Source of the DNA: Schmidtea polychroa
Taxonomy: Eukaryota
DNA: 60,000 nucleotides
Direction: 5' to 3'
Assembly: GCA_044892525.1 (NCBI GenBank)
Contig: CM097885.1
Location: 13,270,001 to 13,330,000, forward strand
The translations under genes and the position numbers were made by a program. This document shows, piece by piece, positions 11,161-30,315 of this stretch (within the stretch, counting starts at the first letter, position 1; each line of letters starts with the position of its first letter). A model generated the notes under the pieces. It saw only the letters and a list, made by a program, of their open reading frames with translations. It searched no databases and was not told the DNA's origin.

Positions 11161-11499
11161 AAAATAAATTACTTGAAAGCCATTTCTAAAAGGGCTAAAT
11201 ACAATTATTTAAAATAGCTAAATAAAGTAGCTAAATAAGTAATTGAATGTATGTAGTTAAATTAACCACATGCATTCCAAAAATTTTCACCATAAAGAAT
11301 GACGCATCTATAATTGGTTGTACATACCAACCCATATTATAGATGCGTTTATTCAGTGCAAACAGGTGAGTAGGTAGATAGTGGCTTACGGGAACAATTA
11401 CCCCCCCCCGGGGGGGGGGGGGAGGGGATTGTTCCCAAATTTTTATTACGCAATTGTTCCCAACTCATTTTTTTGCTTTCAGGGATTTTTGGTCCAAAT

Positions 11500-12375
11500 T
11501 TTTTTTTTATCACACTATAGTGAGAGGGTCTTGATGGTCCTGGGATTTTCAATACAAAAATCCGACTACCACTAAAAAAGCCAAGGATTTTTCAGACTAT
11601 AGTGAGGTGAGTCTCCTTGGTCCTGAGAAATAGGTGGTCTACACTAAAAAGCATGGTAATTTAAGGTCTCAGGATATTTTCAATACAAATAGGTGGTCTA
11701 CACTAAAAAAGCCAAGGATTTTTCAGACTATAGTGAGGGGGTCTCGATGGTCCTAGGATTTTCAATACAAATAAAATTTTTTCAATACAAAAACGATGGT
11801 CCTGGGATTTTCAATACAAAAAATTTTTTTCTATACAAAAATCCGACTATCAATAAAAAAGCATGGAATTTTCAGACTATAGTGAGGGGGTCTCGATGGT
11901 CCTGGGATTTTCAATACAAAAATCCGACTACCACTAAAAAAGCATGGAATTTTCTAGGTCAATTCAGGTGGGTCTCCTTGGTCCTGGGATTTTCAATACA
12001 AAAAAAATTTTTTAATACAAAAATCCGACTATCACTAAAAAAGCATGGATTTTTCTAGGTCAATTAAGGTGGGTCTCCTTGGTCCTGAGAATTTCAATAG
12101 AAAAATCCGACTATCAATAAAAAAGCATGGTAATTTAAGGTCTCATGATATTTTCAATACAAAAAGGCGGTCTTCAATAAAGAAGCATGGTAATTTAAAG
12201 TCTCGGGATATTTTCAATACAAAAAGCTGGTCTACACTAAAAAGCATGGTAATTTAAGGTCTCAGGATATTTTCAATACAAAAAGCTGGTCTACACTAAA
12301 AAAGCCAAGGATTTTTCAGACTATAGTGAGGTGAGTCTCCTTGGTCCTGAGAAATAGGTGGTCTACACTAAAAAA
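11500..12375 (+). repeat. Modular subterminal repeat patchwork (mirror ~27730-28915)
   Basis: Shuffled modules GGTCCTGGGATTTTCAATACAAAA, TCCGACTA(C/T)CACTAAAAAAGC, GACTATAGTGAGG and GCATGGTAATTTAAGGTCTC. Confidence 0.93.
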
Positions 12376-12389
12376 CGTTGTAAATTTTT

Positions 12390-26700: not shown

Positions 26701-29059
26701 TTGGTAGCTAGTTGTTAGTAACTAGTTGTTAGTAACTAGTTGTAAGTACTTGGTAGTTGGTTGTTAGTTGTTAGTACTTGGTACCTAGTTGGTTGCATGT
26801 TTTTGGTTGTTGGTACTTGGTATCAGGTAACTGGTTGTAGGTATCTGGTTGGTAATACATGTTCGTAAGTTACTGGTTGTTGGTACTAAGTTGTTGATTT
26901 GTTGTTGAATTATTATTAAAATTTGTCTTTGAAAAATATTTCTTAAAAATTTCCATTAAAAATTATCATTAAAAAATATTTCATAAAAATTTCCATTAAA
27001 AATTACCATTGAAAAATATTTCATAAAATTTTCTATTAAAAATTACTTATAAAAATATTCCATAAAAATTTTCATTAAAAATTACCATTGAAAATTTTCA
27101 TTAAAAAATTTCAATTCTTAAACACCTTCAACTTTTTGTAATTAAATTTTAAAATCTTACTTTAATTTACTTATTTAAAATTTTTTACCATTGATTACTT
27201 AATTTAAAAATTATTACTTTAATTTACTTATTTAAAATTTTTTTACCATTGACTACTTAATTTAAAATTTGGACCTTAATTTACTTTATTTTAATTTTTT
27301 AGAACCTTAATTTACTTTAATTTAAAATTTAGAACCATAATTTACTTTAATTTAATTTTTAGGACCATAATTTACTTTAATTTAAAAATTTAGACCATAA
27401 TTTACTGTAATTCAATTTTTAGAACCATTATTTACTGTAATTGAAAAATTTGAGCCATAATTTACTTTAATTTAATTTTTAGAACCATAATTTACTTTAA
27501 TTTAAAAATTTGGACCATAATTTACTGTAATTTAAAAATTTGAGCCATAATTTACTGTAATTTATTTTTTAGGACCATAATTTACTGTAATTTAAAAATT
27601 TGAGCTATAATTTACTGTAATTTAAATTTTTGGACCATAATTTACTGTAATTTAATTTTTTGAGCCATAATTTACTATAATTTAATTTTTTAGAACCATT
27701 ATTTACTTTAATTGAAAAATTTACAACGTTTTTTAGTGTAGACCACCTATTTCTCAGGACCAAGGAGACTCACCTCACTATAGTCTGAAAAATCCTTGGC
27801 TTTTTTAGTGTAGACCAGCTTTTTGTATTGAAAATATCCTGAGACCTTAAATTACCATGCTTTTTAGTGTAGACCAGCTTTTTGTATTGAAAATATCCCG
27901 AGACTTTAAATTACCATGCTTCTTTATTGAAGACCGCCTTTTTGTATTGAAAATATCATGAGACCTTAAATTACCATGCTTTTTTATTGATAGTCGGATT
28001 TTTCTATTGAAATTCTCAGGACCAAGGAGACCCACCTTAATTGACCTAGAAAAATCCATGCTTTTTTAGTGATAGTCGGATTTTTGTATTAAAAAATTTT
28101 TTTTGTATTGAAAATCCCAGGACCAAGGAGACCCACCTGAATTGACCTAGAAAATTCCATGCTTTTTTAGTGGTAGTCGGATTTTTGTATTGAAAATCCC
28201 AGGACCATCGAGACCCACCTTAATTGATCTAGAAAAATCCATGCTTTTTTATTGATAGTCGGATTTTTGTATAGAAAAAAATTTTTTGTATTGAAAATCC
28301 CAGGACCATCGTTTTTGTATTGAAAAAATTTTATTTGTATTGAAAATCCTAGGACCATCGAGACCCCCTCACTATAGTCTGAAAAATCCTTGGCTTTTTT
28401 AGTGTAGACCACCTATTTGTATTGAAAATATCCTGAGACCTTAAATTACCATGCTTTTTAGTGTAGACCACCTATTTCTCAGGACCAAGGAGACTCACCT
28501 CACTATAGTCTGAAAAATCCTTGGCTTTTTTAGTGGTAGTCGGATTTTTGTATTGAAAAAAAATTTTTGTATTGAAAATCCCAGGACCATCGAGACCCCC
28601 TCACTATAGTGTGAATAATCCTTGGCTTTTTTAGTGGTAGTCGGATTTTTGTATTGAAAAAAAATTTTTGTATTGAAAATCCCAGGACCATCGAGACCCT
28701 CTCACTATAGTGTGAATAATCCTTGGCTTTTTTAGTGGTAGTCGGATTTTTGTATTGAAAAAAATTTTTTGTATTGAAAATCCCAGGACCATCGAGACCC
28801 ACCTTAATTGATCTAGAAAAATCCATGCTTTTTTAGTGATAGTCGGATTTTTGTATTGAAATTTTTTTTTTTGTATTGAAACTCCCAGGACCATCAAGAC
28901 CCCCTCACTATAGTGTGATAAAAAAAAATTTGGACCAAAAATTCCTGAAAGCAAAAAAATGAGTTGGGAACAATTGCGTAATAAAAATTTGGGAACAAAC
29001 CCCCCCCCCCCCCCGGGGGGGGGGGGGTAATTGTTCCCGTAAGCCACTATCTACCTACT
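20710..29059 (-). repeat. Right ~8.35-kb inverted-repeat arm of element B
   Basis: Partner of the left arm. It is longer by extra subterminal modules (~28550-28870), two extra 30-bp units (~27600-27680) and nine more TTA units. Confidence 0.97.
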
Positions 29060-30315
29060 CAGGTGTAGTAATAGTAAATCGAATACGAACTCATAAACTC
29101 CAATTAACACGATAGGATATTTTGACGACGATAAACATGACCGCGGTTTGATGATTGTGCAGTGAAAATAGATCAGAGTTCTTATATTGTCAAAGACAGT
29201 GACATGTGAAACTAGAGTCATCAATAATAATCCAACCAGCCACGATGAAACATAACATTTCTTTTGCAAATAAATTATGAGGAATTCGTAGATAGGCATA
29301 CATTCAAATCAACGAGTTCCACAGAGCGGATGCCACGAGTACGAACAACATCCAGTAGATAAATGTAAACATCTTGTGTTCGTAAGCCAGAATAAGAGGA
29401 GTAAAACTGGGTGCAATTAGAAATTTCTCGAAATCTAATGTTACCATTGAGACACATATGAGGGAGAATGTACATTAACATGCAGCCACACTAGAATATG
29501 GAGAGTTATCTACACCCTACTACTCAAATATAAAATAGTACCTCTGACAGAAAATATCAGTTTCTTACAAACAACATGTCAAATCAACATAATTTTTCCA
29601 CTGACGAAACTGGTCCACCTCGACAAGATACCTACCACCGTAAGTTATGGAGTCGATTTTTTTTGTTATTGTAAAATTTAACCAATAAATTTTCATGATT
29701 ACGGCGAAAAACGGATCACAATCAACCGAGCCAGACACCATTCGCACGCACCTAGAGTAACGACCACAATCAATTCTCTTTTGACAGGGCAGTATGACTA
29801 TGAGAATGAGGTGGCAAGGACGGGATTTGCAGAAACAGCTGAACAAACGAGTCACAAGTCGACCAGAAACAGTGGGATATTGAGACTGTAGATTATTGAA
29901 GGTCGACGGATAAAGTTGGTCACCGGATTCTTTCGAACGGTGCGATGGTTGAACGGATACGTGTGGGAAAATCAAGTCCTTCTTTAAAATTAGATCATTA
30001 TAACCTCACTACAGAAATTAGAATGATCAAAGTTTGTCTATAAAATGTGACGCTTTTCTGTAGAGACTGCATTACAGTGATTTCTCCTAAAGATCGTGTA
30101 AAAATAAAGGCTAAACGGGTAAACGATAAACGAACCAATTTCAGGTGTTGACAAGTAAATAAGACTAAATTAGCTGAAATCTTAATCATTTGTAAACAAC
30201 AATGGTTGTTGAAAGTTTTCAGATATTTTATGTGTTGGATTATTATTTTTATATTGTTATTGTTTAATGCCAAGAAAGGTTTTAGAGCCCAGCCGAGTCT
30301 CCTTTAAATAAATAC

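What the first reader, a model, noticed from the sequence alone, without database searches (positions are those of the whole stretch)
11363..29065. 17.7-kb gene-less giant foldback element with Polinton/Maverick ends and ~8-kb TIRs
Seen: termini AGTAGGTAGATAG...CTATCTACCTACT, a perfect CAGGTG duplication on both sides, arms of ~7.9 and ~8.35 kb making about 92% of the element, and a 1.4-kb core with no coding capacity. Known: Polintons/Mavericks are typically 15-20 kb, begin AG(T), make 6-bp TSDs and have TIRs of roughly 0.1-1.5 kb around pPolB, integrase, ATPase, protease and capsid genes. Inference: this is a non-autonomous, defective snap-back derivative that kept Polinton genome length by filling it with modular inverted repeats and was integrated in trans. 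A packaging-length constraint is a testable possibility. A 4-bp reading (GAG...CTC, TSD AGGT, Sola2-like) is formally possible, but element A supports 6 bp unambiguously.
Basis: partly seen in the sequence, partly recalled or inferred. Interest (0 to 1): 0.9.

Follow-up and report, generated by a model that had tools for sequence, protein, structure and literature searches.

The report
Gene-less giant foldback Maverick passenger element
This 17.7-kb insertion is a real mobile element with no genes, built of two 8-kb mirror-image arms, that borrows the ends of a virus-like Maverick/Polinton transposon living in the same genome and belongs to a family of roughly a thousand copies.

Summary
Window 11369-29059 (17,691 bp) begins AGTAGGTAGATAG and ends with its reverse complement. 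It is flanked by a perfect CAGGTG duplication. It consists of inverted arms of 7,944 and 8,350 bp (99.6% alike where aligned) around a 1,397-bp core, with no gene, Pfam, Rfam or tRNA match.

It is not an assembly artefact. The 16-nt terminus occurs 2,242 times in the 781-Mb genome, and 35 of 38 end pairs examined have perfect 6-bp duplications. The base before AG varies, so the 4-bp GAG reading fails.

The same ends bound coding copies that carry a protein-primed polymerase, an rve integrase, an A32-type ATPase, an adenain-like protease and a double-jelly-roll capsid protein. These are true Mavericks and are the likely helpers.

All eight gene-less copies I read share one core and the same arm/core junctions, which points to a single origin. 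An arm marker gives 1,805 hits, or roughly 900 copies. Arms are 99.6-99.9% alike within W, c3 and c8, while arm lineages differ by about 5-13%. This shows that the arms evolve in concert.

One 18,081-bp copy is a copy-back derivative of the coding element itself. Lengths cluster at 16-18 kb, but TSD-flanked copies of 1.4-14.5 kb and over 21 kb also exist, so a packaging-length constraint remains only suggestive.

The parts
11363..11368 (.). left copy of the 6-bp target-site duplication CAGGTG
11369..11401 (+). left terminus (AGTAGGTAGATAG...). The 33-nt terminal word is shared with coding Mavericks, and this copy carries the GGCTTAC variant at both ends.
11390..11436 (+). subterminal C9/G13 hairpin flanked by GGGAACAAT/ATTGTTCCC, conserved in all 30 ends read, with variable C/G run lengths
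   Evidence: ssDNA fold -19.9 kcal/mol, z -3.97
11369..13130 (+). outer ~1.8 kb of the left arm, the only part shared with the TIRs of coding copies. It holds 101-, 60- and 30-bp tandem arrays.
11369..19312 (+). left arm, 7,944 bp, non-coding and strongly C-over-G skewed. It contains TACCAAC-type 7/14/21/42-bp arrays at 13187-14650 and (AAT)n at 15071-15160.
19313..20709 (.). unique core (loop), 1,397 bp, homologous to the 912-1,738-bp cores of the seven other gene-less copies read
20710..29059 (-). right arm, 8,350 bp, the inverted copy of the left arm plus 412 extra bases (mainly three more 101-bp units at 28480-28923)
26915..29059 (-). outer part of the right arm that is homologous to the TIRs of coding copies (up to 93.8% over 585 bp at the tip)
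28981..29030 (-). right subterminal C/G hairpin (mirror of 11390-11436)
29027..29059 (-). right terminus (...CTATCTACCTACT)
29060..29065 (.). right copy of the target-site duplication CAGGTG

Best explanation
Window 11369-29059 is a genuine insertion of a gene-less, non-autonomous member of a Maverick/Polinton family. It keeps only the family's ends: the AG...CT termini, a subterminal C/G hairpin and about 1.8 kb of repeat-rich TIR. These ends are extended inward into ~8-kb inverted arms around a ~1.4-kb core. It encodes nothing, so it must have been integrated, and probably replicated, by proteins supplied in trans by coding Mavericks of the same genome, which carry the same ends. The whole gene-less family descends from one ancestral foldback. 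That ancestor most likely arose by a copy-back (template-switch) event of the kind still seen in this family, and it then amplified to roughly 900 copies. Shown here: the structure, the TSDs, the shared ends, the helper gene set, the single origin, the concerted arms, and one copy-back derivative of a coding element. Inferred: trans-mobilisation, origin by copy-back, and the way the arms are kept alike.
For: Structure and TSD. Family size: the 33-nt terminus gives 199+219 exact hits, the 16-nt terminus 1,119+1,123 and the arm marker 913+892, with reversed controls at 0. All 38 adjacent +/- pairs among the first 100 listed termini were checked, and 35 have perfect 6-bp TSDs. Of 11 copies read in full at first, 3 are coding and 8 are gene-less foldbacks. 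The coding copies have a 1,436-aa ORF whose relatives (64% identity, E = 0) carry PF03175 and PF02945 (lead). They also have rve (35.5 bits, cut-off 32.6), Pox_A32 (29.5 bits, cut-off 22.8) and Peptidase_C5 (25.8 bits, cut-off 21.3). A 408-aa ORF was modelled at pLDDT 88 and matches the iridovirus, PBCV-1, mavirus and Sputnik major capsid proteins at E 1e-15 to 1e-13. W shares only its outer ~1.8 kb with the coding copies. The cores of all 8 gene-less copies are homologous and have coincident junctions. In a 1.6-kb arm segment the two arms are identical in W, c3, c4, c8 and c9, while lineages differ by 7-11%. Over whole arms, identity within a copy is 99.6-99.9% in W, c3 and c8, against 86.5-95.0% between lineages. 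Copy c36 (18,081 bp, TSD TATTCA) has the PolB end of the coding element on both sides (6.95-kb arms, 98.9%). It has two open PolB frames and one capsid frame, and no ATPase or integrase frame.
Against: Mobilisation in trans was not observed, only inferred from the shared ends and TSDs. In the three coding copies read, the integrase frame is split by in-frame stops (172 + 207 aa). This may be a short intron, but helper competence is not shown. The inner ~6 kb of each arm matches no Maverick gene or anything else I could name, so its source is unknown, and a copy-back origin of the ancestor is an analogy with c36, not a demonstration. Three of the 8 gene-less copies (c2, c5, c7) have arms from two different lineages yet perfect TSDs, so arms are not always made alike. 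Only 8 of the ~900 copies implied by the marker were read, and marker counts are not verified copies.
Confidence: 0.85

Rival explanations
1. Ordinary non-autonomous DNA transposon. The family is moved by the Maverick integrase alone, its ~17-kb size is simply inherited from a 17-kb master, and the arms stay alike through ordinary gene conversion between close inverted repeats in the chromosome. No replication or packaging constraint is involved.
For: TSD-flanked members of 1,362, 10,113, 11,730, 12,931, 14,375 and 14,451 bp and of 21.4-36.6 kb exist. Two separate loci hold ~10.1-kb forms (10,113 and 10,126 bp), which hints that a short form can spread. The single origin of the family means that a shared length can be shared ancestry. 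Net length differences of 357-375 bp between some arm lineages show no tight compensation.
Against: 26 of 38 TSD-checked pairs lie in 15.85-18.12 kb, and 8 of 12 pairs of the W-type end variant lie in 16.0-18.0 kb genome-wide. Lineages 13% apart with about 1.5 kb of indel turnover still differ by only 18 bp in arm length (W against c3). The independently formed copy-back c36 also landed at 18,081 bp, inside the 16.6-18.1 kb range of 7 of 8 coding-type pairs. MITE-like shortening, the usual fate of non-autonomous DNA transposons, is rare here: 1 of 38.
Confidence: 0.45
2. Assembly artefact: a foldback chimera of long reads or a mis-joined palindrome.
For: Giant near-perfect palindromes are a known failure mode of library preparation and assembly (recalled, not from a call).
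Against: The two arms differ in length by 406 bp and carry point differences, and the element sits between a perfect 6-bp TSD. Seven other gene-less copies at other loci have the same architecture, and six of them have their own perfect, distinct TSDs: c3 has the TSD offset by an extra ACT and c9 has none. The arm marker occurs as +/- pairs about 7.5-9 kb apart at many loci.
Confidence: 0.02
3. A foldback transposon of another superfamily (Drosophila FB-like, IS3EU or Dada) whose ends only resemble Maverick ends.
For: Long arms made largely of tandem repeats recall FB elements. IS3EU and Dada also make ~6-bp TSDs (recalled).
Against: The ends are not merely similar. The 33-nt terminus is identical, and up to 585 bp at the tip is 93.8% identical to the TIRs of copies that carry pPolB, integrase, ATPase, protease and capsid genes. 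No other transposase frame was seen in the 12 copies read.
Confidence: 0.03

Closest known systems
Maverick/Polinton (polintovirus-like) elements
   Same: 5'-AG...CT-3' termini with a short iterated end motif, 6-bp TSD, TIRs and a ~17-kb unit length. Partner copies in this genome encode pPolB, rve integrase, A32 ATPase, adenain-like protease and a DJR capsid protein. Passages of Barreat and Katzourakis 2021 (PMC8097293) give intact vertebrate Mavericks as 16,862 +/- 1,678 bp, TIRs of 46-1,447 bp, 6-bp TSDs and AGT/AG end motifs, and suggest a constrained genome size.
   Different: This element has no gene at all. Its inverted repeats are ~8 kb each (92% of the element) instead of at most ~1.5 kb, and it belongs to a gene-less family of roughly 900 copies.
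Butterfly Polintons with ~2-kb gene-bearing TIRs (Pannagram preprint, 10.1101/2025.02.07.637071; passages seen)
   Same: The TIR is extended inward so that internal sequence is present twice in inverted orientation. Copy c36 here does the same with the polymerase gene.
   Different: Those elements are still coding and their TIRs are ~2 kb. Here the duplication takes in nearly the whole element, and in the W family nothing coding is left.
Copy-back / snap-back defective viral genomes (review PMC13506859, passages seen). Giant-inverted-repeat defective genomes of adenovirus and hairpin derivatives of protein-primed linear plasmids are recalled and were not seen here.
   Same: Almost the whole molecule is self-complementary, there is no coding capacity, both ends carry the replication origin of the helper, and it depends on a helper.
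   Different: These copies are integrated in chromosomes with TSDs and are inherited. Formation during replication, and any interference with the helper, are not shown.
Drosophila Foldback (FB) elements and MITEs (recalled)
   Same: Long inverted arms rich in tandem repeats (FB), and gene-less passengers that use a helper's ends (MITEs).
   Different: FB elements make 9-bp TSDs and belong to another superfamily (recalled). MITEs are short, whereas this family stays at the helper's full length.

Membership tests
Maverick/Polinton, autonomous element | [quoted passage not shown] | tested here: not met
   No ORF longer than 139 aa, 0 of 6 frames with a Pfam hit, and no tblastx match to the polymerase of a coding copy.
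Maverick/Polinton, autonomous element | encodes a retrovirus-like (rve) integrase | tested here: not met
   Same calls (54, 55, 66). The definition is taken from the abstract of PMC5499653.
Maverick/Polinton, non-autonomous derivative | 6-bp target-site duplication | tested here: met
   CAGGTG on both sides; 35 of 38 family pairs are perfect.
Maverick/Polinton, non-autonomous derivative | termini 5'-AG...CT-3' with an iterated end motif | tested here: met
   AGTAGGTAGATAG (GTAG GTAG ATAG) in 30 of 30 ends, with a variable preceding base.
Maverick/Polinton, non-autonomous derivative | ends shared with copies that encode pPolB and integrase in the same genome | tested here: met
   Identical 33-nt terminus and 90-94% identity over ~600 bp with c1, c6 and c10. 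Their genes.
Maverick/Polinton, non-autonomous derivative | mobilised in trans by the helper's proteins | not testable with these tools
   Inferred from the shared ends and TSDs only.
Copy-back / snap-back defective genome of a protein-primed replicon | near whole-length inverted complementarity with the helper's origin at both ends and no coding capacity | tested here: met
   c36 shows a copy-back of the coding element.
Copy-back / snap-back defective genome of a protein-primed replicon | generated during helper replication, packaged, and interferes with the helper | not testable with these tools
   There are no data on extrachromosomal or encapsidated forms. The terminus was not found in IMG/VR or metagenome contigs.
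Drosophila FB-type foldback transposon | 9-bp TSD and FB-type ends (recalled) | tested here: not met
   The TSD is 6 bp and the ends are those of the Maverick copies.
Sola2-like reading (GAG...CTC ends, 4-bp TSD) | invariant G before AG and a 4-bp duplication | tested here: not met
   The preceding base is G in only 8 of 30 ends, and the duplications are 6 bp.

The most novel reading that the evidence does not exclude
The family is the chromosomal fossil record of a defective, satellite-like genome of an endogenous polintovirus. It is a gene-less molecule that keeps only the cis signals for protein-primed replication, packaging and integration. It stays at unit length because it travels in Maverick capsids. 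Its arms are made alike again at each round, because the displaced strand folds into one giant hairpin or because the polymerase copies back. Having outnumbered its helper, it may damp the helper's spread. If so, these copies would be direct genomic evidence that Mavericks of animals replicate as linear protein-primed genomes and move through size-limited particles.
Probability: 0.3. Interest if true: 0.85.

Novelty: new variant of a known kind. Interest (0 to 1): 0.62.

Why it matters
Mavericks/Polintons are thought to be integrated viruses, but how they replicate and move in animals has never been observed. Non-autonomous relatives are barely mentioned in the literature I could search. Five full-text searches found no report of a foldback or gene-less Maverick family, but Repbase entries and subscription journals were not searchable.

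This genome holds three things together. It holds young coding Mavericks. It holds a copy-back derivative that has lost its ATPase and integrase frames yet still integrated with a TSD. And it holds a large gene-less family that keeps the helper's ends and, mostly, its length, with arms that evolve in concert.

That combination turns two open questions into countable ones. Is there a packaging-size limit? Does replication pass through hairpin or panhandle forms? If each arm-marker pair is taken as one ~17-kb copy, the family would make up roughly 2% of the genome (my estimate, not a measured value).

Tried and rejected
1. Laying public contigs on the left junction (four runs from two studies) was uninformative. 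The left flank is itself a high-copy repeat, no piece spans the stretch, and the loose ends at 11368 are heterogeneous (agreement about 0.5). It therefore shows neither an empty site nor confirms the junction.

2. The terminus was sought in IMG/VR and in metagenome contigs and gave 0 matches. Relatives of the capsid protein were sought in IMG/VR and none was confirmed. No free viral form was found, but this is no evidence against one.

3. Pfam and PDB sequence searches did not recognise the polymerase directly. It was identified through its relatives.

4. I first read inverted pairs of the polymerase marker 9.7-10.2 kb apart as further polymerase-arm foldbacks. At one of them a terminus lies between the two markers, so these are unverified and are not counted. 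Only c36 is verified.

5. The compensation test on arm lengths gave mixed results: a net difference of 18 bp in one lineage pair and 357-375 bp in two others.

Only their ends were read, so the class of 21 of the 29 pairs without a polymerase marker rests on markers or is unknown.

7. The scan's notes hold nothing near this place and no look-alike by sequence.

8. A paper on defective adenovirus DNA (PMC354034) is not held, so the adenovirus comparison is from recall.
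Full report
OBSERVATION

CAGGTG stands at 11363-11368 and again at 29060-29065. Between them, 11369-29059 (17,691 bp) begins AGTAGGTAGATAG and ends with the reverse complement.

The inverted-repeat search finds blocks of 2,454 and 1,399 nt that are 100% complementary, a 2,302-nt block at 97% and a 900-nt block at 94%. 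A self-comparison gives a 6.95-kb pair at 99.3%. The arms are 11369-19312 (7,944 bp) and 20710-29059 (8,350 bp), and the core is 19313-20709 (1,397 bp). Aligned end to end, the arms are 99.6% identical over 7,938 bases. The right arm has 412 extra bases, mainly three more units of a 101-bp repeat.

The arms are a mosaic of tandem arrays (101, 60, 30, 13/40 and 7/14/21/42 bp, and AAT runs) plus non-repetitive stretches. They have a strong C-over-G skew that flips at the core.

Nothing in the element codes. The longest stop-to-stop frame is 139 aa and reads through terminal repeats. 0 of 6 frames of 90 aa or more hit Pfam. There are no Rfam families or tRNAs.

IS IT REAL, AND WHAT ARE ITS ENDS?

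The window lies on the largest contig of a 781-Mb, AT-rich eukaryote assembly with four chromosome-sized contigs.

The terminal 192 bp recurs at 94-97% identity. In 30 of 30 fetched ends, similarity starts exactly at AGTAGGTAGATAG. The base before it is G in 8, A in 10, T in 10 and C in 2. The element therefore begins AG, not GAG.

The 33-nt terminus has 199 + 219 exact matches and the 16-nt terminus has 1,119 + 1,123. The reversed control patterns give 0.

Among the first 100 listed places (contig 1, 0-187 Mb) there are 38 adjacent +/- pairs. I read the flanks of all 38, and 35 have a perfect 6-bp duplication, each different. The three exceptions are:
- one copy with an extra ACT at one terminus before the duplication;
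- one copy that shares its right flank with a neighbouring copy;
- one pair whose two flanks are inverted copies of each other.

This rules out an assembly chimera and the 4-bp reading.

A conserved hairpin made of a C run and a G run lies 22-68 nt from each end. As single-stranded DNA it folds at -19.9 kcal/mol, z = -3.97.

THE HELPERS

Ten further copies were read in full.

Three of them (17,077, 16,678 and 17,933 bp) have TIRs of only about 0.5-2 kb and a unique interior full of long frames. These frames include:
- an A32-type packaging ATPase (29.5 bits, cut-off 22.8);
- an rve integrase core (35.5 bits, cut-off 32.6) followed by a weak chromodomain match (20.8 bits, below its 25.1 cut-off), with the frame split by in-frame stops in all three copies;
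- a short adenovirus pX-like motif;
- a TBP-like domain (E = 5e-16);
- in one copy, a RING-finger frame;
- an adenain-like protease N-terminal half (25.8 bits, cut-off 21.3).

The 1,436-aa frame is not recognised by Pfam as a polymerase, nor by the PDB sequence search. Its relatives at 64% identity and E = 0 carry PF03175 (protein-primed family B polymerase) together with PF02945. The atlas places it next to arthropod clusters with the same pair of domains.

The 408-aa frame was modelled with 31 relatives at mean pLDDT 88 and pTM 0.87. It matches the double-jelly-roll major capsid proteins of an iridovirus, PBCV-1, mavirus and Sputnik at E 1e-15 to 1e-13, TM 0.53-0.66 (lead).

These are therefore complete Maverick/Polinton-type elements by the published definition: pPolB plus rve integrase (abstract of PMC5499653). 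The three copies are 99.7-99.8% identical over 7.6-7.7 kb, so they are young.

THE GENE-LESS FAMILY

The other seven copies read, like the window's copy, have no long frames and are giant foldbacks.

The window's copy shares only its outer ~1.8 kb with the coding copies. The tip is up to 93.8% identical over 585 bp, and the repeat arrays are about 80-85% identical. The inner ~6 kb of each arm is shared only with other gene-less copies, at 84-98%. It gives no tblastx match to any Maverick gene.

All eight cores are homologous (84-99%) and begin and end at the same places. The family therefore had one foldback ancestor.

A 36-nt marker from the arm has 913 + 892 hits with up to one mismatch. It typically occurs as a +/- pair about 7.5-9 kb apart, which suggests roughly 900 copies. 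A polymerase marker has 446 + 465 hits. These are marker counts, not verified copies.

THE ARMS EVOLVE IN CONCERT

In a 1.6-kb non-repetitive arm segment the two arms are identical in five copies (W, c3, c4, c8, c9), while the lineages differ by 7-11%.

Over whole arms, identity within a copy is 99.9% (c3), 99.7% (c8) and 99.6% (W). In c4 it is 99.8% over the inner 5.5 kb and 96.9% over the whole arm. Between lineages it is 86.5% (W/c3), 87.2% (W/c8), 94.9% (c3/c8) and 95.0% (W/c4).

With a single origin, arms that evolved independently would by now differ at least as much as the lineages do. They do not, so the two arms of a master copy are kept alike.

The end variant also goes in pairs. Of 34 hits of the window's GGCTTAC variant, 24 form 12 pairs with the same variant at both ends.

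Three copies (c2, c5, c7) are chimeras. Their two arms come from different lineages, always with the part nearest the core alike and the outer part different, and all three have perfect TSDs. A single crossover between co-existing lineages explains that pattern.

How the arms are kept alike is an inference. One possibility is repair of the giant hairpin that a displaced single strand would form. A second is repeated copy-back by the polymerase. A third is conversion in the chromosome.

COPY-BACK DOES HAPPEN IN THIS FAMILY

One pair (18,081 bp, TSD TATTCA) holds the polymerase marker twice, in inverted orientation.

When read in full, it is the right ~11.8 kb of a coding element, with the left ~6 kb replaced by an inverted copy of the right end. 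The arms are 6.95 kb at 98.9%, and the centre is 99.7% identical to the capsid region of a coding copy. It has two open polymerase frames and one capsid frame, and no ATPase or integrase frame. It lacks those two frames yet integrated with a TSD, and it is of unit length.

Other inverted pairs of the polymerase marker exist. At one of them a terminus lies between the markers, so I do not count them.

LENGTH

Of the 38 TSD-checked pairs, 26 lie between 15,850 and 18,124 bp, 7 are shorter (1,362 to 14,670 bp) and 5 are longer (21.4-36.6 kb).

Eight pairs hold a single polymerase marker. Seven of them measure 16,586-18,124 bp and one measures 21,382 bp. Of the 29 pairs without the marker, 18 lie in the main range. 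Eight of the 29 were read, and all eight are gene-less foldbacks.

In the first 26 Mb of contig 1, the 16-nt terminus gives 36 adjacent pairs, whose TSDs were not checked. 21 hold the arm marker, and 12 of these measure 16.0-17.7 kb. 5 hold the polymerase marker (16.6-20.9 kb). 10 hold neither.

Of the 12 pairs with the W-type end, 8 measure 16.0-18.0 kb.

Arm lineages 13% apart have about 1.5 kb of indels between them and a net difference of 18 bp (W/c3). Two other comparisons give 357-375 bp.

The mode is therefore striking for a gene-less element, and it matches both the helper and published Maverick sizes of 16,862 +/- 1,678 bp, which those authors read as a constrained genome size (passages of PMC8097293). 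However, shared ancestry can explain much of it, and short TSD-flanked forms exist. These include two ~10.1-kb copies at different loci. I rate a real size limit at about one in three.

COMPARISON WITH WHAT IS KNOWN

The ends, the TSD and the helper genes place the element with Mavericks/Polintons as a non-autonomous derivative. It fails the two features that define an autonomous member.

Its architecture is that of a snap-back defective genome (review PMC13506859, passages). It is also an extreme version of the gene-bearing 2-kb TIRs reported in butterfly Polintons (preprint 10.1101/2025.02.07.637071, passages).

It is not a Drosophila FB element, whose TSD is 9 bp (recalled), and it is not a MITE, because it is full length.

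Five literature searches found no report of a gene-less or foldback Maverick family. The only mention of non-autonomous Polintons concerned Tlr1. No supplements were read, and Repbase was not searchable.

The link to coding copies shown here supports that reading and suggests that the phenomenon is not confined to one genome.

VERDICT

I class the element as a new variant of a known kind, of above-average interest.

Noticed in passing
window 2558-7971: A second, smaller foldback: inverted arms 2699-4783 and 5889-7971 at 99-100% around a ~1.1-kb core. Its ends do not look like the Maverick terminus, and the right arm runs into a GC-richer stretch with an ORF (7886-8386).
   Followed up: partly
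L049:2106-2618 (-), coding Maverick copy: A 171-aa frame with a TATA-binding-protein domain (PF00352, E = 5e-16, 58.7 bits). This is unusual cargo for a Maverick and is present in all three coding copies read.
   Followed up: no
L049:3395-3778 (+): A 128-aa frame with a short match to the adenovirus core protein pX/mu (PF05829, 27.6 bits, cut-off 25).
   Followed up: no
L050:3209-7516 (+): The polymerase carries an endonuclease VII/HNH-like insert (weak PF02945 match at residues 683-728). Most arthropod-type relatives carry the same pair of domains.
   Followed up: partly
L049:3836-4996 (+): The integrase reading frame is split into 172- and 207-aa parts by in-frame stops within about 24 bp in all three coding copies. 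This may be a short intron.
   Followed up: no
G000:C1:116199592-116214261: A 14,670-bp element whose left and right flanks are reverse complements of each other (tagattTTCATA / TATGAAaatcta) instead of a direct duplication. The locus is a larger palindrome or an inversion between two copies.
   Followed up: no
G000:C1:29620477-29636532 and 30052336-30068185: Two copies 430 kb apart share the same right flank, and their arm segments are identical. The second copy has no TSD, which suggests a segmental duplication or recombination between copies.
   Followed up: no
G000:C1:5691791-5708550 (copy c3): The right terminus has an extra ACT before the duplication, as a slip in a sliding-back start of protein-primed synthesis would leave.
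   Followed up: no
G000:C1, several places; also 145325061-145361692 (TSD perfect): Adjacent end pairs of 33.2, 33.4, 33.5, 36.3 and 36.6 kb, about twice the unit length. One of them holds the arm marker three times at 6.67-kb spacing. These may be dimers, internal tandem duplications or nested insertions.
   Followed up: no
window 10700-11368: The left flank of the insertion is itself a high-copy repeat (very high contig depth in four public runs). It contains a short palindrome at about 11301-11350.
   Followed up: partly
G000:C1, ten end pairs in 0-26 Mb: End pairs of 9.8-16.0 kb (plus one of 36.3 kb) that hold neither the arm marker nor the polymerase marker, including two of 15,239 and 15,248 bp. 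They probably represent further non-autonomous lineages.
   Followed up: no
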